A DNA stretch of 64,000 bases from Candidatus Woesebacteria bacterium GW2011_GWF1_31_35 (GCA_001029755.1 CP011214.1:429767-493766), one strand, 5' to 3'; shown: positions 6,855-62,947, counted from the stretch's first letter. The notes: a model not told the origin generated them from the sequence alone. Translations and numbers: made by a program.

Positions 6855-8613
6855 AATGGCTAGAAAAAATTCTATCTCATTTATTAAACAAAATAAATTT
6901 GTTTTAATCCTTGTTTTAATAGGTTTATTTATATTTTTTAATTCACTTTTTAATGGTTTTGTCTGGGATGATGAAGAGTTAATAGTTAATAATGTTATTA
7001 TTCATTCATTTAGCAATTTAACTAGCTTTTTTGCTGGAGGAGCATTTAATTCAGGGGGGACAGGATCTTTATCTGGGGTTTTTTATAAACCTATTATGAC
7101 TTTATGTTTTTCACTTTTATATACAATTTTTGGTAATAGGCCAATTGTCTTTCATTTATTTTCAATAATTATACATATTATAAACTCTATACTAGTTTTT
7201 TTTCTTTTTAAAGAATTTTTTCCTCATCTTGAAGCAAAAAGAAAAGAGTTGGTATCTTTTATTGTATCTTTATTTTTTTTACTCCATCCCCTTTATTCAG
7301 AAGTAGTCTTCTATATCTCAAATTTTCAAGATTTACTTTTTATGTTTTTTGGTTTATCGGCTTTTCTACTAATTTTAAAGAAACGTATTAGTGTAGTAAA
7401 TATTCTGCTTATAACTTTTTTGTTTTTGTGTTCACTTCTTTCAAAAGAAACTGGTTTAGTCTTAATAATTATTTCATCTTTGTACTCATTCCTGTTTAAG
7501 AGGAAAGAAAAAGGATTTTTTTGGGTTTATATTGCAGGTTTTACATCAGTAGTTATGTATTCTTTGATGCGTTTTGGAATTGCTAAACAGTTTTTCCCAA
7601 ACAATAATCTTGCTCCTATTGCTAGAATTAATTTAGTAGAGAGACTTATTAATTTACCTAAGATACTTCTTTTTTACATTCAAAACTTCTTTGTTCCAAT
7701 TAACTTTTCTGTCAATCAAAATTGGCTGGTTAAATCTTTAAACTTAAGGGAATTTTATATTCCGCTTATTGTCATCTTAGTTTTTTTTACCTTTATTTTT
7801 TTAATGACATTTTTATTGTGGAAGAAAAAAATAAGTTTAGGTAAGCTTTATTTTTTCTTTTTATCTTGGTTTATTTTAGGACTTTTGCCACATATTCAAA
7901 TTTTTCCACTTGATGCAACTGCAACTGGTAGGTGGTTTTACCTTCCATCACTTGGACTTTTCGGGATGATATCTGTTTTGGTATTGCTTTTAACTGATAA
8001 ATTAAAAAGTAATCAAAGAAAAACTTTATTAATTATCATTATTTTGATAGTTACAATATTTGGAATTAGAACATTTGTAAGAAGTTTTGACTGGAGAAAT
8101 GGACTTACTTTTTATAGTAAAGAAATTAAGCTCTCTGGAGACAATTTTAGCTTAGAAAATAACCTTGGTGTAGAACTCTATCGTATTGGTAAACTTGATG
8201 AGGCTGGAGTGCATTGGGAGAGGTCAGTTAATCTTGCACCTTATTGGTGGACAAATTTTAATAATTTAGGAGTTTATTGGCAAAACAAAAATGATTTAGA
8301 AAAGGCTGAAGGATATTATTTAAAATCAATTGAAAATGGAAACTACTATTTAGCTTTTGAAAATTATGCATTAGTTTTATTAAAACAGAAAAAATATACA
8401 AAAGCTAAAGAATTCTTGAATACAAATATCAAATATTTTCCACAAAACACTAATATGATTCAACTACTTGCACTTTCATATTACTTTACAGGAGATACTG
8501 ATACTGCGATTAAAGTTGTCCAATATTTAATTGATAACTCTCCAACAGAAAATAATAAGAAACTATTAGATCTTATTCAAAAAGGCGGGGATTTAAGTAA
8601 CTTGTTTGATTAA
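6847..8613 (+). CDS. GT-C fold membrane glycosyltransferase (PMT/TMTC-like) with C-terminal TPR repeats
   Basis: 588 aa. About 11 predicted TM helices. First extracytoplasmic loop carries FNGFVWDDEEL (the D-E/D-D motif of PMT/ArnT-type GT-C enzymes). C-terminal ~170 aa form TPR-like repeats. Overlaps uppS by 8 nt. Confidence 0.6.
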   Translation: MHEMARKNSISFIKQNKFVLILVLIGLFIFFNSLFNGFVWDDEELIVNNVIIHSFSNLTSFFAGGAFNSGGTGSLSGVFYKPIMTLCFSLLYTIFGNRPIVFHLFSIIIHIINSILVFFLFKEFFPHLEAKRKELVSFIVSLFFLLHPLYSEVVFYISNFQDLLFMFFGLSAFLLILKKRISVVNILLITFLFLCSLLSKETGLVLIIISSLYSFLFKRKEKGFFWVYIAGFTSVVMYSLMRFGIAKQFFPNNNLAPIARINLVERLINLPKILLFYIQNFFVPINFSVNQNWLVKSLNLREFYIPLIVILVFFTFIFLMTFLLWKKKISLGKLYFFFLSWFILGLLPHIQIFPLDATATGRWFYLPSLGLFGMISVLVLLLTDKLKSNQRKTLLIIIILIVTIFGIRTFVRSFDWRNGLTFYSKEIKLSGDNFSLENNLGVELYRIGKLDEAGVHWERSVNLAPYWWTNFNNLGVYWQNKNDLEKAEGYYLKSIENGNYYLAFENYALVLLKQKKYTKAKEFLNTNIKYFPQNTNMIQLLALSYYFTGDTDTAIKVVQYLIDNSPTENNKKLLDLIQKGGDLSNLFD

Positions 8614-8669: not shown

Positions 8670-8711
8670 GTGACTGCTATTGATAAATGTTAGGCAGGAG
8701 ACAAGATATAA

Positions 8712-8930
8712 ATGGAACAAACTACTAAAAAGCAAGTCAGATTAGAATCATTACCTGATCTATTAACGGTTAGGGAAGTTTCAGATTTACTTAGAGTTTC
8801 ACCCTTAACAATCAAAAGATGGGGTAAAAGAGGTAAACTTCCACCTCTTCGTATTAATTCAAGAGGTGACAGACGTTATAAGAAAGAATCAATTTTAGCT
8901 CTTCTTGGAATGCAGGTAAAAGTTGATTAA
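8712..8930 (+). CDS. Small excisionase/MerR-family HTH DNA-binding protein
   Basis: 72 aa. LTVREVSDLLRVSPLTIKRWGKRGKLPPLRINSRGDRRY matches the HTH_17/MerR-type HTH pattern. Confidence 0.6.
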   Translation: MEQTTKKQVRLESLPDLLTVREVSDLLRVSPLTIKRWGKRGKLPPLRINSRGDRRYKKESILALLGMQVKVD

Positions 8931-57649: not shown

Positions 57650-57652
57650 TTT

Positions 57653-57832
57653 ATTTTTTCTTTTGGGGTGGGTTTTCAGGTTTTTGTTTTTCTTCTTCTT
57701 TTTTCTCTTCTTCTTTCCAAACTATGCCTCTTTTTTTAATATTTTCTTCAATTGCCTCTCTAGCTCCTGGAATATCAAAAAGGCTATCTGGTGGTTTTTG
57801 AGGTTCTTCACTTGGTTTGATTTCTGTCATTT
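57653..57832 (-). CDS. Small Lys/Glu-rich hypothetical protein
   Basis: 59 codons (MTEIKPSEEPQKPPDSLFDIPGAREAIEENIKKRGIVWKEEEKK…). It is preferred over the poly-Phe plus-strand ORF on the basis of composition. Same orientation as the two upstream small genes. Confidence 0.35.
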
Positions 57833-57893
57833 ATTAGAAAATAATAATAGCAGATAGAAAAATAAAAAAGAAGAGTACAAGCCAGAGAACAGT

Positions 57894-58166
57894 CTAAACC
57901 AATATTTTGACGGCTTTACCCAAATCTTTTTTAACCCAGAAAGTATAGAAAGGGTAGGCAAGTACTAAACTCGCCGAAATTAAAGCTGAAAGAATAAATA
58001 AAGTTAAAAAAAGGACAGGACCTAAAATAGGAGTTTTATTCATGGGTCCAAACCAATTATTACCATTAATCATAACTAGGCCTATTAAGAAAATATAGAA
58101 AGTTAAAAGGATACTTTGTATAAAAGAAATATAAATTGTAGATTTATTATTTAAAATTTTAATCAT
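57894..58166 (-). CDS. Small membrane protein (2 TM), hypothetical
   Basis: 90 aa, two hydrophobic helices. Confidence 0.4.
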   Translation of the reverse strand: MIKILNNKSTIYISFIQSILLTFYIFLIGLVMINGNNWFGPMNKTPILGPVLFLTLFILSALISASLVLAYPFYTFWVKKDLGKAVKILV

Positions 58167-58352
58167 TTATTCCCAAATATTTTTTGATCTAGATGCTGTC
58201 TCAAGATTTTTAAGATGTTCTTTATGAATTTTTTCTGCATCCTTTATAACTCTTTCATTAATTTGAGGAGTAGGTTCAACTGTTTTTATTGCACGACGAT
58301 TATACAATGCTGTTACAGGTTTATCTAATTCATTCAATTTATTTTCTGACAT
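58167..58352 (-). CDS. Small hypothetical protein
   Basis: 61 aa. Stop abuts the start of the 57894 gene. Confidence 0.35.
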   Translation of the reverse strand: MSENKLNELDKPVTALYNRRAIKTVEPTPQINERVIKDAEKIHKEHLKNLETASRSKNIWE

Positions 58353-58525
58353 ATAAATCTTATTTTATCATCCATGTTTATTTTAATAAAGATTTTTAAA
58401 TTTATTAATAATTTTTCCCCACATTTTCGTATAATGAGAAATATCTTGCAATTATTTTGCAGGGGCTAATAAACTACATAGGGAACTACTTTACAGAAAG
58501 TATTGAGGAATGATAATATGAAAAT

Positions 58526-58756
58526 ATGAGTGATACAAAAATGTTGCAAATTATTTTGGATAGGATTATATCTTTAGAAAAGAAAGTTGGTAATGGAAAT
58601 AAAGAATTAAAAGAAGAAATTATAAAAAACAGAAAAAGAATAGATAAGTTTGGTATTCAACTAGCAGAACTTTCAGATGACGCACCCACAGTTGAAGAAT
58701 TTGATGAATTGGATCAAAAAGTTAAGAGACTGGAAAATAAATTTGCCACATTATAA
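58526..58756 (+). CDS. Small coiled-coil hypothetical protein
   Basis: 76 aa. Heptad-like Lys/Glu-rich pattern. Confidence 0.4.
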   Translation: MSDTKMLQIILDRIISLEKKVGNGNKELKEEIIKNRKRIDKFGIQLAELSDDAPTVEEFDELDQKVKRLENKFATL

Positions 58757-58806
58757 TTATTTCAAATTCACCTAATCAATCCCAAACTTAATACGTTTCC
58801 ATTTTT

Positions 58807-58889
58807 GCAGAGCTATACCGAAAAATTCGTACGCAATTTCTAACTTCTTAACCGCTTCGCTACGGCTCGGCCTTCGGCCTCGCCTCCGC
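58807..58889. repeat. Inverted repeat A' (83 bp), left junction arm
   Basis: Reverse complement is 82/83 identical to 60874-60956. Confidence 0.85.
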
Positions 58890-59384
58890 TATTTTTTTTG
58901 CGCGCGTTTCGGACAAACACACCAATTGTAATTCTGTTTTTGAAATTTTACCAGGGTTCGGTTGTTTGCCCACCCACCCAAAGTATTGTTGGCGCTACCC
59001 CCTCTGCACTCGCTAGGGCGTCCTAGGGGCCGCTTTTCCCATGTATTAACTTGTTTTATCATCTTGGTTCATTATCTTCCTCGCCTCGTGCAAGGAACAT
59101 TAATTGCCCCTTCGGGTTGCACTCGGCTTTTCTTTTAACAGACTTATTTTAGTTGCTCGTTCCGGGGGGCATTCCTTTTTTTCCGCCCCCGCGCTAATTT
59201 TTTCCCTTCTTTCGCGCGTGGTCGGCAGAAACCTGCTTCGCAGGATAGCGCCAACGGGAATGAACACAAATTTAGGAACACATCTTTCGCCGTTTTAACA
59301 CAAAAAACCAGTCAGAAAAACACTTTGCTCTTGTACAACACCAAAGCGGTACCGCATACATTTTTGTGAGCAAGATGGTCTGTT
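58890..59384 (+). other. GC-rich non-coding region inside the element, rich in short GC hairpins (possible structured RNA or recombinase regulatory/binding region)
   Basis: About 495 bp with no convincing ORF. Hairpins include CGGGGG...CCCCCG and CCTGC-TTC-GCAGG. Shares the TTTTTTGCGCGCG and TTCGGACAAA motifs with 62430-62475. Confidence 0.3.
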
Positions 59385-60764
59385 TTGTTTTATAATGCAA
59401 TGATGGCAGATTTACCAAGATTTGAAAAAGAATTTATAGCGGAAACCCCTAGACAAATAAATAACCGGTCATTGGAAAATCGTTTTGGGTTAAAAGCTAC
59501 AGAGCAAGGGATTTCCTCAGCAGAGGAAATCCTCCCTTTTTTGAGAATTCAAAACCAAGTTCTACCTTCGCCTGAAACTCCAGATAGAGGACGACATAGA
59601 TCGTCATGGTTTTTAAGCTATGCAAGATATGGTGAAAAAACACCACAACATTTTAGTTTAGAAGATAATTTTTCCTTACCCGTTACAAAAGAGCAAGAAA
59701 AAAAGATAAATGATGAGCTTATGGATGAATTGCGTTTGATTCCAGATGGAATAAAAAAGGCTGCCCAAATACCCCCCAGACTTAAAGATTTAAGTGAAAA
59801 GATTAAAGATTTAGATGGTTGGAATTTAGACACACTTTACAGTTTGGATACAATGGATGGCTGGCACACTTTTTGGATTAGTTTGGAGAAAAACGTTGGG
59901 GATTCGAGGATGTCAGTAACTTTAGATATAACTTATGGCTGTAGTTTGGATATAAAAATTCCAATAGAGAATTTTGATGAATCTGTGAAGGAAGTTAGGG
60001 CAGCGGCAAAAATAATGTCGAACTGGTTAGAGTTAAAATATCCCCCTAATTTGGAGTACGAATTTTCAATGAACCAAGGGCAGGTAGAAGATGATCCTTC
60101 TCGGACCTCATCTAGTTTTCCAGAATATTTCTTTAAAACTTTAGATTATTGGAAATCATTTTCTGGATCAAAACAGTTGAGAGGTTTAATTGGGCAATCA
60201 AATGATGACGCGAAACCTATTTTACTTTTAGAGAACCCAAGTTTAAGTGTTGCTTCAAATAGAATAGAATTAGATTGGATCTCGCACGGCGGAACAGTTT
60301 CGTATTCCGGCCTAATTGTTAACACTCATCCCGATGTCTACGAAACATTTAAGCGTGCAATTAGAGATAGAAGGGCGAATCAAAATTTAGTCGAAATTTT
60401 TCCGAATGAGGATTTTGATGATCGAAAGTGGTTACATATGTTTGTCAACATCGACCCAGAAAACGGAGCCACTTTAGTAGAAGATATAGCAAGTAATACA
60501 GGGAAAGAAGAGTTAAAAAAACTTTTAGGTTTAATTGAAGGACAATACGGAATTAGTTATGGTGGAGTAATCGATAAAAGCCAAGCAGAAAGAGAAGCTC
60601 GAAGACCGATGTTTATGCCAATAATTAATGAAAATGCAGCAGTTATTAAAGAGAAGTACGGATCTTCGACAGCTAGAAAATTTAGAGGTTATGCGATTTC
60701 TGCGTTAGTAGATGGAAGCAAACACGCTCAGGAAAAATATGAGTCATATCTAAAACTTATTTGA
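59385..60764 (+). CDS. Hypothetical cargo protein of the integrated element
   Basis: 459 aa. Codon composition is less AT-biased than host genes. No recognisable domain. Confidence 0.55.
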   Translation: MFYNAMMADLPRFEKEFIAETPRQINNRSLENRFGLKATEQGISSAEEILPFLRIQNQVLPSPETPDRGRHRSSWFLSYARYGEKTPQHFSLEDNFSLPVTKEQEKKINDELMDELRLIPDGIKKAAQIPPRLKDLSEKIKDLDGWNLDTLYSLDTMDGWHTFWISLEKNVGDSRMSVTLDITYGCSLDIKIPIENFDESVKEVRAAAKIMSNWLELKYPPNLEYEFSMNQGQVEDDPSRTSSSFPEYFFKTLDYWKSFSGSKQLRGLIGQSNDDAKPILLLENPSLSVASNRIELDWISHGGTVSYSGLIVNTHPDVYETFKRAIRDRRANQNLVEIFPNEDFDDRKWLHMFVNIDPENGATLVEDIASNTGKEELKKLLGLIEGQYGISYGGVIDKSQAEREARRPMFMPIINENAAVIKEKYGSSTARKFRGYAISALVDGSKHAQEKYESYLKLI

Positions 60765-60873
60765 CCTAGATATTTCTAGTTGAAAATAACACTTCACGGA
60801 CTAAATTAAGAATATAAGGCAAAAATTTTAGCGTTTTGTTGTGAACACAAAAGGAAAATTCGAGTCAGCGTTT

Positions 60874-60956
60874 GCGGAGGCGAGGCCAAAGGCCGAGCCG
60901 TAGCGAAGCGGTTAAGAAGTTAGAAATTGCGTACGAATTTTTCGGTATAGCTCTGC
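60874..60956. repeat. Inverted repeat A (83 bp), internal site left arm
   Basis: Partner of 58807-58889. Ends in the CTGC core at 60953-60956. Confidence 0.85.
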
Positions 60957-61028
60957 CCAAAAGGAAAGATGTGCGGCGCGAGCCGCCGAATTCGGAAGGT
61001 GGCGAGCGGAAAAGAGCGTATCGAAGCC
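60953..61028. repeat. Inverted repeat B (76 bp), internal site right arm
   Basis: Reverse complement is 74/76 identical to 62506-62581. Begins at the CTGC core. Confidence 0.85.
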
Positions 61029-61080
61029 TAAAAAGAAGACCAAAACGCTAAAATTTTAACTGAAAGAAATTTCTGTCCGT

Positions 61081-62673
61081 ATGACAAAATATATTTGCTA
61101 TTGCCGAAAGAGTACCGATGAAAAAGATAGACAAGTTTTATCTATTGATGGTCAGATGGCTGAATTAAAAGAGTTTGCACAAAGAGAAAAACTTCAAGTC
61201 ATCGATTTTATAACAGAAAGTAAAACCGCAAAGGAGCCGGGTCGGGAAAAGTTTGCCGAAGTATTAAAAAGAATTGAAAAAGGTGAAGCCAACGGGATTT
61301 TATCGTGGCACCCAGATCGTTTGGCTCGAAATAGTATTGACGGTGGCCAAGTTATTTATTTACTAGATACAGGCAAACTTTCTGACTTGAAGTTCCCAAC
61401 TTTTTGGTTTGACAACACTCCTCAAGGAAAGTTTATGCTCAATATTGCTTTTGGACAAAGTAAATATTATGTGGATAGTTTGAGCGAAAATGTTAAGCGT
61501 GGTATTCGAGAGAAGTTAAGGCGTGGAATTTGGCCAAAAGAAGCTCCTTTGGGTTATTTTAACGATCTAAAAACTAAATTGATCGAGGTTGACTCTAAAA
61601 AATCCAAAGTTGTTAAAAAGGCTTTTGAAAAGTTTTGTAATAGCAATATTTCTTTCTCCGAAATTGCTAGATTTATGTACGTAAATGATATCAAAACTAA
61701 AAAAGGTGATTGTTTAAAAGTTGATCAAGTTAAACATATGCTTAGAAATCCATTTTATATTGGCACATTTTTATATTCAGGTGAGTTATATAAAGGCTCT
61801 CACAAAACTTTTATTTCCAAAGCTCTTTTTAACAAAGTCCAAAAGCAAATGGAAAATTTCGCAAGACCAAGGAATAAAGGCCATAACTTTCGTTTTACAG
61901 GGTTTATTAAGTGTGCAGAATGTGGCTCAGCGATCACCGCAGAAACTCACCCTAGGTTTTACAAAAGAACAAATCGGAAAGTCGTGTTTAATTACTATCG
62001 TTGCACAAAAAGTTTGGGGTCATGTGGCCAGAAATATATAACAGATGTAGAACTTGAGAAGCAGATTAGAAATTTGGTACGTAAGACTTCCTTACCAGAA
62101 GAAGGTTATCGAATTTGGCAGAAGTTATTAGAAGAAGACAAAAAGAGTGAAGAGTTATCCGCTTCTCAAAGAAGCATTGAATTAGAATCAAAAATTTCAA
62201 ATCTGGAAGATCAGGAAAATACACTTTTGGACGGGTACTTACAACACATTGTTGAGCCAGAAATTTACAAGAAAAAGAAGAATGAAATTTTTGACAGAAA
62301 ACTAAAATTAAATGATGAAAAAAGCAAAAACGGCGAAAGTGGCGGCGGACGCCTCGAACCTTTTGCAAACTTCATAAAAACGGCGAAAGATGGGGAAGAA
62401 TTGGCGCGCGCAAAAAATAATTTGTCCGAACTTGCGGTTTGGACAAAAAACGCTGGATCGAACTTCTTTTTAGGAGATAAATTATTAAAGCTAACACTCA
62501 AAAAGGGCTTCGATACGCTCTTTTCCACTCGCCACCTTCCGAATTCGGCGGCTCGCGTCGCACATCTTTCCTTTTGGGCAGGGCTGGAGGGAATCGGACC
62601 CCCATTAGAAGATTTGGAGTCTCCCGGTCTACCATTGACCTACAGCCCTAAACAATTGTTAATTATACTTTAA
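61081..62673 (+). CDS. Large serine recombinase (phage-type serine integrase)
   Basis: 530 aa. N-terminal resolvase catalytic domain (YCRKSTDEK with nucleophile Ser; HPDRLARN). Recombinase domain. Zinc ribbon CAECGSA...CTKSLGSC. Coiled-coil region. The last ~40 codons read through repeat B' and may not be genuine. Confidence 0.88.
   Translation: MTKYICYCRKSTDEKDRQVLSIDGQMAELKEFAQREKLQVIDFITESKTAKEPGREKFAEVLKRIEKGEANGILSWHPDRLARNSIDGGQVIYLLDTGKLSDLKFPTFWFDNTPQGKFMLNIAFGQSKYYVDSLSENVKRGIREKLRRGIWPKEAPLGYFNDLKTKLIEVDSKKSKVVKKAFEKFCNSNISFSEIARFMYVNDIKTKKGDCLKVDQVKHMLRNPFYIGTFLYSGELYKGSHKTFISKALFNKVQKQMENFARPRNKGHNFRFTGFIKCAECGSAITAETHPRFYKRTNRKVVFNYYRCTKSLGSCGQKYITDVELEKQIRNLVRKTSLPEEGYRIWQKLLEEDKKSEELSASQRSIELESKISNLEDQENTLLDGYLQHIVEPEIYKKKKNEIFDRKLKLNDEKSKNGESGGGRLEPFANFIKTAKDGEELARAKNNLSELAVWTKNAGSNFFLGDKLLKLTLKKGFDTLFSTRHLPNSAARVAHLSFWAGLEGIGPPLEDLESPGLPLTYSPKQLLIIL
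62506..62581. repeat. Inverted repeat B' (76 bp), right junction arm
   Basis: Partner of 60953-61028. Ends in the GCAG core, which overlaps the tRNA-Trp 3' end. Confidence 0.85.
62579..62649 (-). tRNA. tRNA-Trp (anticodon CCA)
   Basis: Manual fold: acceptor AGGGCTG/CAGCCCT, D-arm GGTC-AATGGTA-GACC, anticodon stem GGAGA/TCTTC with loop CTCCAAA, T-arm GGGGG-TCCGATT-CCCTC, discriminator G. Confidence 0.8.
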
Positions 62674-62695
62674 AATAGGGGAATTTGGAAAAAAG

Positions 62696-62947
62696 TTACT
62701 TATGTATGTATTTAAAGGTAATTCTTGCTTTGGAGTTATTTATATGTTTTTCTAGGTTATGTTTTCCATGCTCACTTAGAGCTTTAAAATATAGATATTT
62801 TGAAGAACTTAAAGACCATTCACATTCTGAAATATTACATCCAAAACCTATTAATTTTAAATTTTCATTAGTAAGAGAACGATCTGAAAATCTAATAACA
62901 TCATTTTTCCTGGATTTATGATTTTCTTTCATAGCCTTCTCCTCCAA
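62696..62947 (-). CDS. Small hypothetical protein
   Basis: 83 aa. No domain recognised. Overlaps the next ORF by about 30 nt. Confidence 0.3.
   Translation of the reverse strand: MEEKAMKENHKSRKNDVIRFSDRSLTNENLKLIGFGCNISECEWSLSSSKYLYFKALSEHGKHNLEKHINNSKARITFKYIHK

What the first reader, a model, noticed from the sequence alone, without database searches (positions are those of the whole stretch)
58807..62649. GC-rich serine-recombinase element inserted at the tRNA-Trp 3' end, with 76-83-bp inverted repeats arranged as attL / internal full site / attR around a GCAG core
GC content jumps inside 58.8-62.6 kb. Three related sites share a GCAG/CTGC core. The left junction (58807-58889) is the reverse complement of arm A. 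An internal site (60874-61028) is A-CTGC-B. The right junction (62506-62581) is the reverse complement of arm B, followed by GCAG and then the tRNA-Trp body. In one orientation these read A-core-X' and Y'-core-B, the pattern expected for attR/attL generated by a serine integrase from an A-core-B attP. Yet an intact A-core-B copy persists inside, in inverted orientation. The long, 97-99% identical inverted pairs (A'..A flanking the cargo gene and B..B' flanking the recombinase) could instead define two adjacent invertible segments, a shufflon-like phase switch. Extra sub-motifs (TTTTTTGCGCGCG, TTCGGACAAA) recur just inside both outer arms, as expected for recombinase or accessory binding sites. 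The native context (rpmG, tRNA-Trp, secE-nusG) is the classic conserved locus, so the insertion is clearly secondary.
Basis: seen in the sequence. Interest (0 to 1): 0.8.

Follow-up and report, generated by a model that had tools for sequence, protein, structure and literature searches.

The report
tRNA-targeting serine-recombinase element with internal attP
A 3.8-kb mobile element sits at the 3' end of tRNA-Trp in a Woesebacteria (CPR) genome; it belongs to a large family, which I could not find described, whose recombinase gene runs across its own recombination site and which keeps a spare inverted copy of that site inside the element.

Summary
Two inverted-repeat pairs (83 nt, 98.8%; 76 nt, 97.4%) meet at an internal A-CTGC-B site. 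The outer junctions are exactly the attR and attL expected from that site crossing with tRNA-Trp plus its trailer. A related genome (L092) has the empty site, and homology to the window stops at the core.

This is not a one-off or an assembly artefact. 61 of 86 related large serine recombinase (LSR) genes have the B..B' pair. 25 also show the abutting A'..A pair around variable cargo. In 53 of 57 loci the outer end of B' lies at a tRNA 3' end, always convergent with the LSR.

Only when B' is joined to A' does it encode a conserved tail (window: AELYRKIRTQFLTS). Integration therefore swaps the recombinase C-terminus.

Module orientation is fixed across relatives, so a freely flipping shufflon is not supported. 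The role of the internal inverted attP is unresolved. Candidates are a re-arming switch for the LSR, a second attP in the excised circle, a regulatory leader, or a single-strand splint.

I rate it a new variant of a known kind, with high interest.

The parts
58807..58810 (.). S1 core (GCAG), the left crossover point. The native tRNA trailer lies to its left.
   Evidence: It is shared by all three sites. The flank to its left resembles the trailer of the empty site in L092 in 18 of 26 positions (the count is my own hand alignment of the printed sequences).
58811..58889 (+). Arm A' (left terminal arm). It is the inverted copy of the internal arm A, is GC-rich with a hairpin, and is followed by a T-run.
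   Evidence: 98.8% identity to the reverse complement of 60874-60956. GC is 53%.
58807..58851 (+). Detached tail exon of the LSR (AELYRKIRTQFLTS, then stop). It is in frame with the LSR only when B' is joined to A'.
   Evidence: Translation. The same conserved tail is predicted in 43 distinct relatives.
58890..59384 (.). GC-rich non-coding stretch. It holds degenerate remnants of an inverted LSR 3' end, split by about 375 nt.
   Evidence: Inverted repeats of 13 nt and 16 nt with 62405-62417 and 62377-62392. 58974-59260 is conserved at 84.6% in sibling L093. There is no Rfam hit.
59400..60764 (+). Cargo gene, a 454-aa protein of unknown function.
   Evidence: ORF. No Pfam, PADLOC or PHROG hit. 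Only 4 homologue clusters among 5.8 billion proteins.
60780..60807 (+). Promoter-like site (TTGAAA-16-TAAATT) just upstream of Z. It is a possible LSR promoter.
   Evidence: A consensus scan only, 9 of 12 matches.
60822..60838 (+). Z, the 5' half of the stem that encloses the internal site.
   Evidence: A perfect 17-nt inverted repeat with 61041-61057. An equivalent pair exceeds all shuffles in 26 of 42 relatives and shows compensatory changes.
60846..60873 (+). X-like motif, an imperfect inverted copy of the LSR 3'-end segment 62448-62476.
   Evidence: Sequence comparison. Perfect X/X' pairs of 26-28 nt occur in the tRNA-Ser subfamily.
60874..60952 (+). Arm A of the internal site S2 (the P-type half of attP). 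On its minus strand it encodes the tail peptide.
60953..60956 (.). S2 core (CTGC).
60957..61028 (+). Arm B of the internal site S2.
   Evidence: 97.4% identity to the reverse complement of 62506-62581. GC is 60%.
61041..61057 (+). Z', the 3' half of the enclosing stem. It ends 24 nt before the LSR start codon.
61081..62673 (+). Large serine recombinase ORF as assembled (530 aa). The conserved body ends at about 62505. The ORF then reads through B', the core and the antisense of tRNA-Trp.
   Evidence: Pfam PF00239, PF07508 and PF13408. YCRKS catalytic motif and a match to SprA, PDB 9dxh. The identical protein is seen in at least 38 contigs from several MAGs.
62506..62577 (+). Arm B' (right terminal arm). 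It encodes LSR residues of about 476-499.
62578..62581 (.). S3 core (GCAG), the right crossover point at the tRNA discriminator.
   Evidence: Homology with the empty-site locus L092 ends at 62578.
62579..62649 (-). tRNA-Trp(cca), the integration target. It is intact.
   Evidence: Rfam RF00005, 63.3 bits; ARAGORN.

Best explanation
Region 58807-62581 is an integrated copy of a compact mobile element driven by a large serine recombinase (LSR).

Shown:
- Its attachment site attP is A-CTGC-B. Integration crossed it with attB, which is the 3' end of tRNA-Trp plus its trailer. This gave tRNA|B at the right junction and A|trailer at the left junction.
- The element is built from two modules, each bracketed by long, near-identical inverted arms: cargo (A'..A) and recombinase (B..B'). 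They meet at a second, intact, inverted attP (S2) placed in the LSR's upstream leader and enclosed by a covarying stem Z/Z'.
- The crossover point lies inside the LSR reading frame, about 14 codons before its natural stop. The conserved C-terminal tail (AELYRKIRTQFLTS) is encoded in arm A'. It is joined to the gene only when B' abuts A'.
- In the integrated state seen here the tail is replaced by antisense-tRNA sequence.

Inferred:
- Recombination of the two outer sites excises a circle that carries two inverted attP copies and a complete LSR gene.
- Integration through the joint at the LSR 3' end re-splits the gene. This self-limits the enzyme and leaves a stable insertion.
- The internal attP supplies a spare 3' end and a partner site, so a rare inversion between B and B' could re-arm the LSR. 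That inversion could be site-specific or homologous. S2 may also act as a regulatory leader for the LSR.

Cargo is an exchangeable cassette.
For: - Site relationships and repeats.
- Empty attB in sibling L092, with homology ending at the core.
- The exact 530-aa product occurs on at least 38 contigs.
- Family-wide architecture. 61 of 86 LSR genes have B..B' (median 91 nt, 99.2% identity), and 25 also have an abutting A'..A (median 107 nt, 100%). These include an isolate genome (Schleiferia thermophila, L025) and a complete MAG chromosome (CP011210, L021).
- In 53 of 57 loci a convergent tRNA 3' end lies at B'.
- The LSR frame is open through B' in 53 of 54 loci. The other two frames carry stops in 20 and 42 of 54.
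- The conserved tail phi-phi-x-x-[IVA]-R-T-x-F appears in 43 distinct elements, with free third-position variation (Thr ACT/ACC/ACA/ACG; Arg CGA/AGA/CGG).
- The upstream LSR of a tandem array (L030) and LSR_b of L096 are completed by a neighbouring A'-like sequence (paired A' arm in L030; unpaired in L096).
- Elements with 85-92% identical LSR and arms carry unrelated cargo.
- The Z/Z' stem is present in 26 of 42 loci and shows compensatory changes.
- A T-loop-like motif lies at +12 in attB and +17 in arm A.
- The LSR has its catalytic motif and domains.
Against: - No read-level data. Neither excision, a circle, nor any inversion was observed for this element.
- No flipped state was seen at any tRNA junction, so the proposed re-arming inversion is inference only.
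- Whether the tail-swapped LSR is inactive, or differently active, is unknown.
- No recombination directionality factor was identified, so how attL x attR excision would occur is open.
- The conserved tail is explained by the circle joint alone and does not by itself require the internal site.
- L096 shows that the internal-type attP can serve as the integrating site. This complicates the picture of a locked state only.
- The promoter call is a weak consensus match.
Confidence: 0.55

Rival explanations
1. Phase-variation switch. The LSR acts mainly as an invertase that flips the cargo segment (A'..A) and/or its own gene (B..B') at appreciable frequency, like a shufflon or a Hin/Gin switch. The tRNA location would be incidental.
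For: Both segments are bracketed by long near-perfect inverted repeats that meet at a shared core. Inverting B..B' would change the LSR C-terminus to the conserved tail.
Against: Orientation is invariant in consensus assemblies. In 53 of 57 loci the LSR is convergent with the tRNA, the cargo module is upstream wherever seen, and internal landmarks stay on the same side. Cargo is unrelated housekeeping, restriction-modification or defence genes with no alternative ends. The outer arms coincide with insertion boundaries. The enzyme is a large serine recombinase, not a small invertase.
Confidence: 0.12
2. Single-strand splint. The internal A-core-B segment is complementary, on the same strand, to both termini (A' and B'). 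A single-stranded copy of the element, for example DNA taken up by natural transformation, could fold so that its ends are aligned on S2 and sealed into a circle. This is analogous to the internal complementary region of DIRS1 retroelements. Mismatch repair in the annealed arms would keep them identical.
For: The topology is exactly that of termini complementary to adjacent halves of an internal segment. The arms are much longer (60-240 nt) than an LSR site needs and are mostly 100% identical within an element, although they differ by 6-17% between sibling elements. The arms decay in the arm-divergent copy L074. The family is concentrated in Patescibacteria; by my own knowledge, not tested here, this group is generally reported to carry DNA-uptake genes and few conjugative systems. 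Only 5 relatives were found in 2.9 million viral contigs.
Against: No single-stranded intermediate is known for serine recombinases. Either strand could enter, which predicts both orientations after integration. The idea does not explain the Z/Z' stem. There is no direct evidence.
Confidence: 0.08
3. The internal site is only a regulatory or passive duplicate. In this view it is an attP copy co-opted as the LSR operator and structured 5' leader, or a by-product of an ancient inverted insertion kept similar by gene conversion. It would have no role in DNA rearrangement.
For: S2 lies immediately upstream of the LSR start. It is enclosed by a covarying stem whose 3' half ends 3-35 nt before the ATG in most of those loci, and a promoter-like site precedes Z. 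A simple derivative without S2 exists (L006/L007). Fixed orientation fits a site that is not recombined.
Against: An operator needs about 50 bp, not 150-250 bp of perfect identity with both ends. Conservation of the whole arrangement across LSRs only 42-57% identical argues for function rather than relic. L096 shows an S2-type site used as an integration junction.
Confidence: 0.2
4. Assembly artefact. The repeats and the internal site would come from a mis-join of integrated and excised forms, or from collapsed repeats in metagenome assembly.
For: Many contigs of relatives break exactly in arm B. The window comes from a metagenome-assembled genome.
Against: The unique joins (cargo 3' end to A, and B to the LSR 5' end) cannot be produced by mixing the two forms. 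The same layout recurs in more than 60 independent loci, including an isolate genome and complete chromosomes. The arms (76-94 nt) are shorter than, or comparable to, typical short-read lengths (my assumption about the read data). The identical LSR product spanning B' and the tRNA is seen on at least 38 contigs.
Confidence: 0.02

Closest known systems
Large serine integrases of phages and integrative elements (phiC31, Bxb1, A118/LI, SPbeta SprA)
   Same: The domain set is the same: resolvase catalytic domain with the Ser nucleophile, recombinase domain and zinc ribbon. The junctions are the reciprocal products of attP x attB around a short core. The half-site motif lies about 5 bp further out in attP (+17) than in attB (+12).
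   Different: A complete inverted attP persists inside the integrated element. The att arms are 60-240 nt perfect inverted repeats. The crossover lies inside the recombinase ORF. No conserved directionality-factor gene was found. The element is only 3-8 kb and carries arbitrary cargo. Similarity to SprA is weak (E 7e-9).
TnpX/TndX-type LSR transposons (Tn4451, Tn5397)
   Same: Both are small cargo-carrying elements moved by a single LSR through a circular form. In Tn4451 the circle joint changes expression of the recombinase by creating a promoter (from my own knowledge).
   Different: Here the joint would complete the coding sequence rather than a promoter. The target is a specific tRNA 3' end. 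The internal inverted attP and the long arms have no counterpart in those transposons.
SSV1-type integrases of archaeal viruses
   Same: attP lies within the integrase ORF, so integration splits the gene.
   Different: Those are tyrosine recombinases, and the gene is split into two large parts. Here only the last 13-19 codons are exchanged, and a spare copy of the 3' end is kept inside the element.
Serine DNA invertase switches and shufflons (Hin, Gin, Pin/PinQ; Rci shufflon)
   Same: Segments are bracketed by inverted repeats that share a crossover core with a serine recombinase encoded nearby.
   Different: Those use a small invertase, or the tyrosine recombinase Rci, with repeats of 19-34 bp, and both orientations are found in populations. 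Here orientation is fixed across relatives and the outer repeats are the ends of an insertion.
DIRS1 retroelement internal complementary region; yeast 2-micron plasmid
   Same: In DIRS1 an internal segment is complementary to both termini. The 2-micron plasmid is a circle divided by two inverted recombination sites into two unique segments, one of which encodes the recombinase. The predicted excised form of this element has that layout.
   Different: Both use tyrosine recombinases. DIRS1 also needs reverse transcription and 2-micron needs a replication origin. Neither function was found here.

Membership tests
Large serine recombinase (LSR) integrase | N-terminal resolvase-type catalytic domain with the Ser nucleophile and a conserved Arg | tested here: met
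   PF00239 at E 1e-19. The Y-C-R-K-S motif aligns to SprA. Y7, R9 and S11 are invariant in 16 relatives.
Large serine recombinase (LSR) integrase | Recombinase domain plus a zinc-ribbon domain with Cys ligands | tested here: met
   PF07508 at 6e-16 and PF13408 at 1e-8. C278, C281, C308 and C315 are invariant.
Large serine recombinase (LSR) integrase | Coiled-coil motif inserted in the zinc-ribbon domain that controls directionality | not tested
   A Lys/Glu-rich stretch at about residues 340-420 aligns to SprA. No coiled-coil prediction or structure model was run.
Large serine recombinase (LSR) integrase | Junctions are reciprocal products of attP x attB around a short shared core | tested here: met
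   The outer junctions are tRNA-CTGC-B and A-CTGC-trailer, and the internal site is A-CTGC-B. The empty attB in L092 ends homology at the core.
Large serine recombinase (LSR) integrase | Two-base staggered crossover at a central dinucleotide | not testable with these tools
   Only a 4-nt shared core (CTGC) can be delimited from sequence.
Large serine recombinase (LSR) integrase | Excision needs a separate recombination directionality factor | tested here: inconclusive
   No gene is conserved across the cargo of 25 elements. The window element has only one other gene, of unknown function. A small HTH gene is conserved in the tRNA-Ser subfamily only.
Serine invertase switch / shufflon | Both orientations of the segment occur among genomes or reads | tested here: not met
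   In 53 of 57 loci the LSR is convergent with the tRNA. Cargo is upstream wherever seen, and internal landmarks stay on fixed sides. Read-level data were not available.
Serine invertase switch / shufflon | Small invertase (about 190 aa, C-terminal HTH) with short 19-34 bp repeats | tested here: not met
   The enzyme is a 475-530-aa LSR. The repeats are 76-94 nt here and 40-241 nt in relatives.
tRNA-gene genomic island of the classical (tyrosine integrase) kind | Tyrosine integrase, and a direct repeat of the tRNA 3' segment at the distal end | tested here: not met
   The recombinase is of the serine type. Only 4-8 nt are shared between the ends. Arm A mimics the T-loop motif but does not duplicate the tRNA.
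Integrase gene split by its own attP (SSV1-like) | The crossover point lies inside the recombinase ORF | tested here: met
   The frame is open through B' to the core in 53 of 54 loci. The conserved tail is encoded beyond the core in A'. The window tail is 58807-58851.
Integrase gene split by its own attP (SSV1-like) | Tyrosine recombinase of archaeal fuselloviruses | tested here: not met
   This is a serine recombinase in bacteria.

The most novel reading that the evidence does not exclude
The element carries a self-contained directionality and activity switch that needs no separate directionality factor. The DNA state decides which recombinase isoform is made. The full-length LSR with the conserved tail is made when B' abuts A', which happens in the circle, after inversion against the internal attP, or in arrays. 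A tail-swapped form is made when the element is integrated at the tRNA. The long identical inverted arms and the internal attP would then exist to let the integrated element re-arm its own recombinase by inversion.
Probability: 0.25. Interest if true: 0.9.

Novelty: new variant of a known kind. Interest (0 to 1): 0.75.

Why it matters
Large serine recombinases are prized genome-engineering tools because they need only short sites. Their directionality normally depends on a separate factor that has to be found for each enzyme.

This family is abundant: at least 7945 homologues at E<1e-30 in the protein search. It appears to encode its control in the DNA layout itself. The recombination site lies inside the gene, a conserved tail is present only in one DNA state, and a spare inverted site sits in the gene's leader. 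If confirmed, this would be a new regulatory logic for serine integrases.

It would also describe a main vehicle of gene exchange in Patescibacteria. By my general knowledge, few other mobile-element types are reported for this group. The elements carry restriction-modification, defence, resistance and metabolic genes to tRNA loci.

A cultured carrier, Schleiferia thermophila DSM 21410, makes the idea directly testable.

Tried and rejected
- Rfam search of 57.5-64 kb at E<=1 found only the two tRNAs, so the GC-rich stretches are not a known RNA family.
- The GC-rich non-coding stretch is conserved in L093 no more than the LSR gene is (84.6% vs 86.4%). It does not align in L003, so I dropped the idea of a conserved structured RNA there.
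- The predicted exact attB 29-mer gave no hit in the metagenome collection. A tRNA-only pattern then found the empty site.
- The cargo protein has no hit in Pfam, PADLOC or PHROGs.
- No gene is shared across cargo modules, so no universal accessory or directionality gene was found.
- I first read GAAAAAATTCGAAC in arm A purely as a recombinase-binding motif. It also encodes EKIRT of the LSR tail, with synonymous variation. The excess of CGA codons still hints at a DNA-level constraint.
- The extra inverted repeats X/X', Y/Y' and Z/Z' cannot all pair in one strand, because they cross each other. A single large fold of the whole element was therefore rejected.
- Models in which the internal site is the usual integrating attP predict the LSR to be co-directional with the tRNA. 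This was seen only once, in an array (L096), so I rejected it as the main route.
- Four literature searches found no description of this layout. The library does not cover subscription-only papers, so absence is not proof.
- Viral contigs hold only 5 relatives, so this is not a phage integrase family.

Full report
**1. Observation**

The window is AT-rich: 30% GC outside the element. Between 58.8 and 62.6 kb, GC rises to 38% overall. It is 52-60% in four short arms and 46% in a non-coding stretch at 58890-59384.

Self-comparison of 58700-62700 gives two strong inverted matches:
- 60874-60956 vs 58889-58807, at 98.8% over 83 nt;
- 62506-62581 vs 61028-60953, at 97.4% over 76 nt.

The repeat finder reports the same pairs extended to 94 and 80 nt. 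They overlap in the internal site around CTGC (60953-60956). GCAG lies at 58807-58810 and at 62578-62581.

tRNA-Trp is on the minus strand at 62579-62649, and its discriminator base lies inside the core. The ORF 61081-62673 is a large serine recombinase (LSR) with the Resolvase, Recombinase and Zn_ribbon_recom domains. Its catalytic Y-C-R-K-S motif aligns to SPbeta SprA.

**2. Origin and reality**

The exact 530-aa product is recorded from several Candidatus Woesebacteria MAGs from Rifle groundwater, on at least 38 contigs. This product includes the part that reads through arm B' and the tRNA, so the right junction is reproducible.

A related genome (L092) is 84.5% identical across the rpmG side. 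It has tRNA-Trp with no insert, and its homology to the window stops at 62578, the core. Its trailer (...TTAATATGAAACAATTTTGCAG) resembles the window's left flank (...TTAATACGTTTCCATTTTTGCAG). The insertion is therefore secondary, and both boundaries fall at the core.

**3. A family, not a one-off**

The LSR has at least 7945 homologues at E<1e-30. I fetched 80 loci from species-representative genomes (42-80% amino-acid identity), plus close siblings, and compared each locus with itself.

- Of 86 LSR genes, 61 are bracketed by a B..B' inverted pair (median 91 nt, median identity 99.2%, 29 perfect).
- 25 also show an abutting A'..A pair (median 107 nt, median identity 100%) around a cargo segment of 0.9-5.3 kb within the 6 kb of flank available.
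- Most of the rest are cut by contig ends, often exactly in arm B.
- The layout occurs in an isolate genome (Schleiferia thermophila DSM 21410, L025) and in a complete MAG chromosome (CP011210, L021). This, together with the unique joins inside the element, excludes an assembly artefact.
- In 53 of 57 loci with enough flank, the outer end of B' coincides with the 3' end of a tRNA gene on the opposite strand. The targets are Ser 21, Gln 16, Gly 5, Trp 4, Pro 3 and others.
- The window's closest siblings (L093, L094, L095, L074) all sit at tRNA-Trp.

**4. Site anatomy**

Read on the tRNA strand, the element is: tRNA-core-B, reversed LSR, B'-core'-A', reversed cargo, A-core-trailer. The outer junctions are the reciprocal products of A-core-B crossing with tRNA-core-trailer.

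A T-loop-like motif T[TC]CG[AG]A starts 12 nt from the divergence point on the tRNA side in 23 loci. It starts 17 nt from that point in arm A in 34 loci. This 5-bp offset matches what I recall of the published model for attB-type and attP-type half-sites of LSRs. That model is recalled, not tested here.

The arms evolve in concert. Sibling elements differ by 6-17% in arm sequence, while the two copies within one element are 96-100% identical. In L074 the arms have diverged to about 70%, although the LSR ORF looks intact.

**5. Cargo**

The window's cargo is one 454-aa protein with no family match and only four homologue clusters.

Across 25 elements the cargo ORFs are unrelated to one another. 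They include peptide deformylase, DNA methylases, a TdeIII endonuclease, LexA-like proteins, AbiEii-type ATPases, a reverse transcriptase and an aminoglycoside nucleotidyltransferase. No family is shared by all. Elements whose LSR and arms are 85-92% identical carry unrelated cargo. Cargo is therefore a swappable cassette.

**6. The recombinase gene crosses its own site**

In 53 of 54 loci the LSR frame stays open through the whole B' arm up to the core. The other two frames carry stops in 20 and 42 of the 54 loci.

In the integrated state the ORF then runs into antisense tRNA, which gives variable tails. Most database homologues end this way, with ...G[IFL]EP... derived from the T-arm.

If B' is instead joined to A', the frame continues for 10-40 codons (mostly 13-19) into a conserved peptide, phi-phi-x-x-[IVA]-R-T-x-F. 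This was found in 43 distinct elements. In the window the peptide is AELYRKIRTQFLTS-stop, encoded at 58807-58851.

Thr codons vary freely (ACT 22, ACC 11, ACA 6, ACG 4) and Arg uses CGA, AGA and CGG. The conservation is therefore at the protein level. The excess of CGA in AT-rich genomes hints at an added DNA-level constraint (TCGAA).

The crossover thus lies about 14 codons before the natural stop, and integration swaps the C-terminus. The complete gene exists only when B' abuts A'. That happens in the predicted excised circle, after inversion of B..B' against the internal site, or in arrays. In L030 the upstream LSR takes its tail from the next element's A'. In L096 an LSR that points away from the tRNA is full length.

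**7. The internal site**

S2 (60874-61028) lies in the leader of the LSR gene. It is enclosed by a perfect 17-nt inverted pair, Z at 60822-60838 and Z' at 61041-61057. Z' ends 24 nt before the start codon.

An equivalent pair exceeds all shuffles in 26 of 42 relatives. In a 12-sequence alignment it forms an 18-pair stem with many compensatory changes. A promoter-like site lies just upstream of Z, but this is a weak consensus match.

Further short inverted pairs recur in relatives: X/X', and Y/Y' in the tRNA-Ser subfamily. They cross one another, so they cannot all be one fold.

L006 and L007 show a simple decayed derivative: B, LSR remnant, cargo, A, with no internal site.

**8. Orientation**

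Wherever a cargo module is seen it lies upstream of the LSR, and the LSR is always convergent with the tRNA. Conserved landmarks keep their side. A small HTH gene, Z and X lie next to S2 in all 8 aligned tRNA-Ser elements. The non-coding stretch lies next to A' in the window, L003 and L093.

A freely flipping switch is therefore not supported. Any route that uses S2 as the integrating attP would place the LSR co-directional with the tRNA. That was seen only in the L096 array. Hence the joint at the LSR 3' end must be the usual integrating site.

**9. Mechanism**

Shown:
- The region is an LSR element integrated at a tRNA 3' end.
- It has a tripartite att layout.
- The ORF crosses the core, with a detached conserved tail.
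- A covarying stem encloses the internal site.
- Cargo is exchangeable.

Inferred:
- Excision of the two outer sites gives a circle with two inverted attP copies and a complete LSR gene.
- Integration through the 3' joint re-splits the gene and stabilises the insertion.
- The internal attP serves one or more of these roles: a partner for a rare re-arming inversion, a second attP in the circle, or a regulatory leader.
- A single-strand splint role, like the DIRS1 internal complementary region, would explain the long, identical arms but has no direct support.

I cannot decide among these roles without read-level or experimental data.

**10. Novelty**

Four full-text searches found no description of an LSR element with an internal inverted attP, long inverted arms, or an ORF that crosses attP. 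The library is incomplete. The enzyme and the attP x attB logic are known, but the layout and the tail exchange are not. I rate it a new variant of a known kind.

Noticed in passing
L096:5467-10545: One cargo module (A' 7375-7473 to A 8709-8807) is flanked by two divergent LSR modules. tRNA-Lys is followed by B_a, a reversed LSR_a and B_a'. On the other side are B_b, LSR_b and B_b', followed by tail-coding sequence. LSR_b is full length and points away from the tRNA, so an internal-type attP was used as an integration junction at least once.
   Followed up: partly
L006:1480-3200 and L007: A cargo homologue (79% aa identity) sits in a simple layout: B arm, about 60 nt remnant of a reversed LSR 3' end, cargo, X, full A arm, then unrelated flank. 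There is no internal site and no LSR. It is either a decayed non-autonomous derivative or an image of the ancestral simple element.
   Followed up: partly
window 62391-62424: Two independent assemblies of the same organism break inside the LSR gene near CGCGCGCAAAAAA rather than in arm B'. L091 starts at 62391, and the partial protein KKP31397.1 ends at residue 448, which corresponds to about 62424. This could reflect population heterogeneity at the short inverted repeat shared with 58894-58906.
   Followed up: no
L029, L030, L044, L025, L038, L048, L049, L055 (alignment A2, columns ~108-330): A small, divergently transcribed, Xre-like HTH gene of about 70 aa (MKSQNNNETIGDKIKQLRNKQGLTQDELA...) is conserved at the S2-proximal end of the cargo module in the tRNA-Ser subfamily. 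A repeated GATAGTAT-like region lies upstream of it. It could be a regulator or a directionality factor. It is absent from the window element.
   Followed up: no
proteins P0018-P0035: A class of LSR homologues of about 865-920 aa aligns to the query at 44-47% identity over about 90% of the query, yet is nearly twice as long. Pfam lists only the LSR domains. The nature of the extra half is unknown.
   Followed up: no
L074:1940-7570: The closest species-representative relative (80% aa identity, also at tRNA-Trp) has an apparently intact LSR ORF, but its arms have diverged to about 70% with indels. Arm identity is therefore not maintained in every copy.
   Followed up: partly
L025, L026, L027: Nearly identical B' arms and LSR tails occur in genomes labelled Schleiferia thermophila (an isolate, Bacteroidota), Thermodesulfovibrio (MAG) and Patescibacteria (MAG), each at a different tRNA-Ser gene. 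This means either very recent transfer across phyla or mis-binned contigs.
   Followed up: no
window 57651-58756: Four small ORFs without family matches lie between the epimerase gene and the element. This left flank has no counterpart in the empty-site relative L092 beyond the last ~25 nt. It may be the residue of earlier insertions at the same tRNA trailer.
   Followed up: no
L055:4369-11628 and L030:4295-13389: These are tandem arrays of two complete elements. The left end of the tRNA-proximal element serves as the target of the distal one (junction B1'-core-A2'). Arm A can therefore stand in for the tRNA half of attB.
   Followed up: partly
L098:349-4598: A 4.6-kb contig from the viral collection has a 62-nt perfect inverted pair. 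One arm is at the LSR 3' end, at the contig end. The other is 2.8 kb upstream of the LSR start. This suggests a variant in which cargo lies inside the B..B' pair.
   Followed up: no
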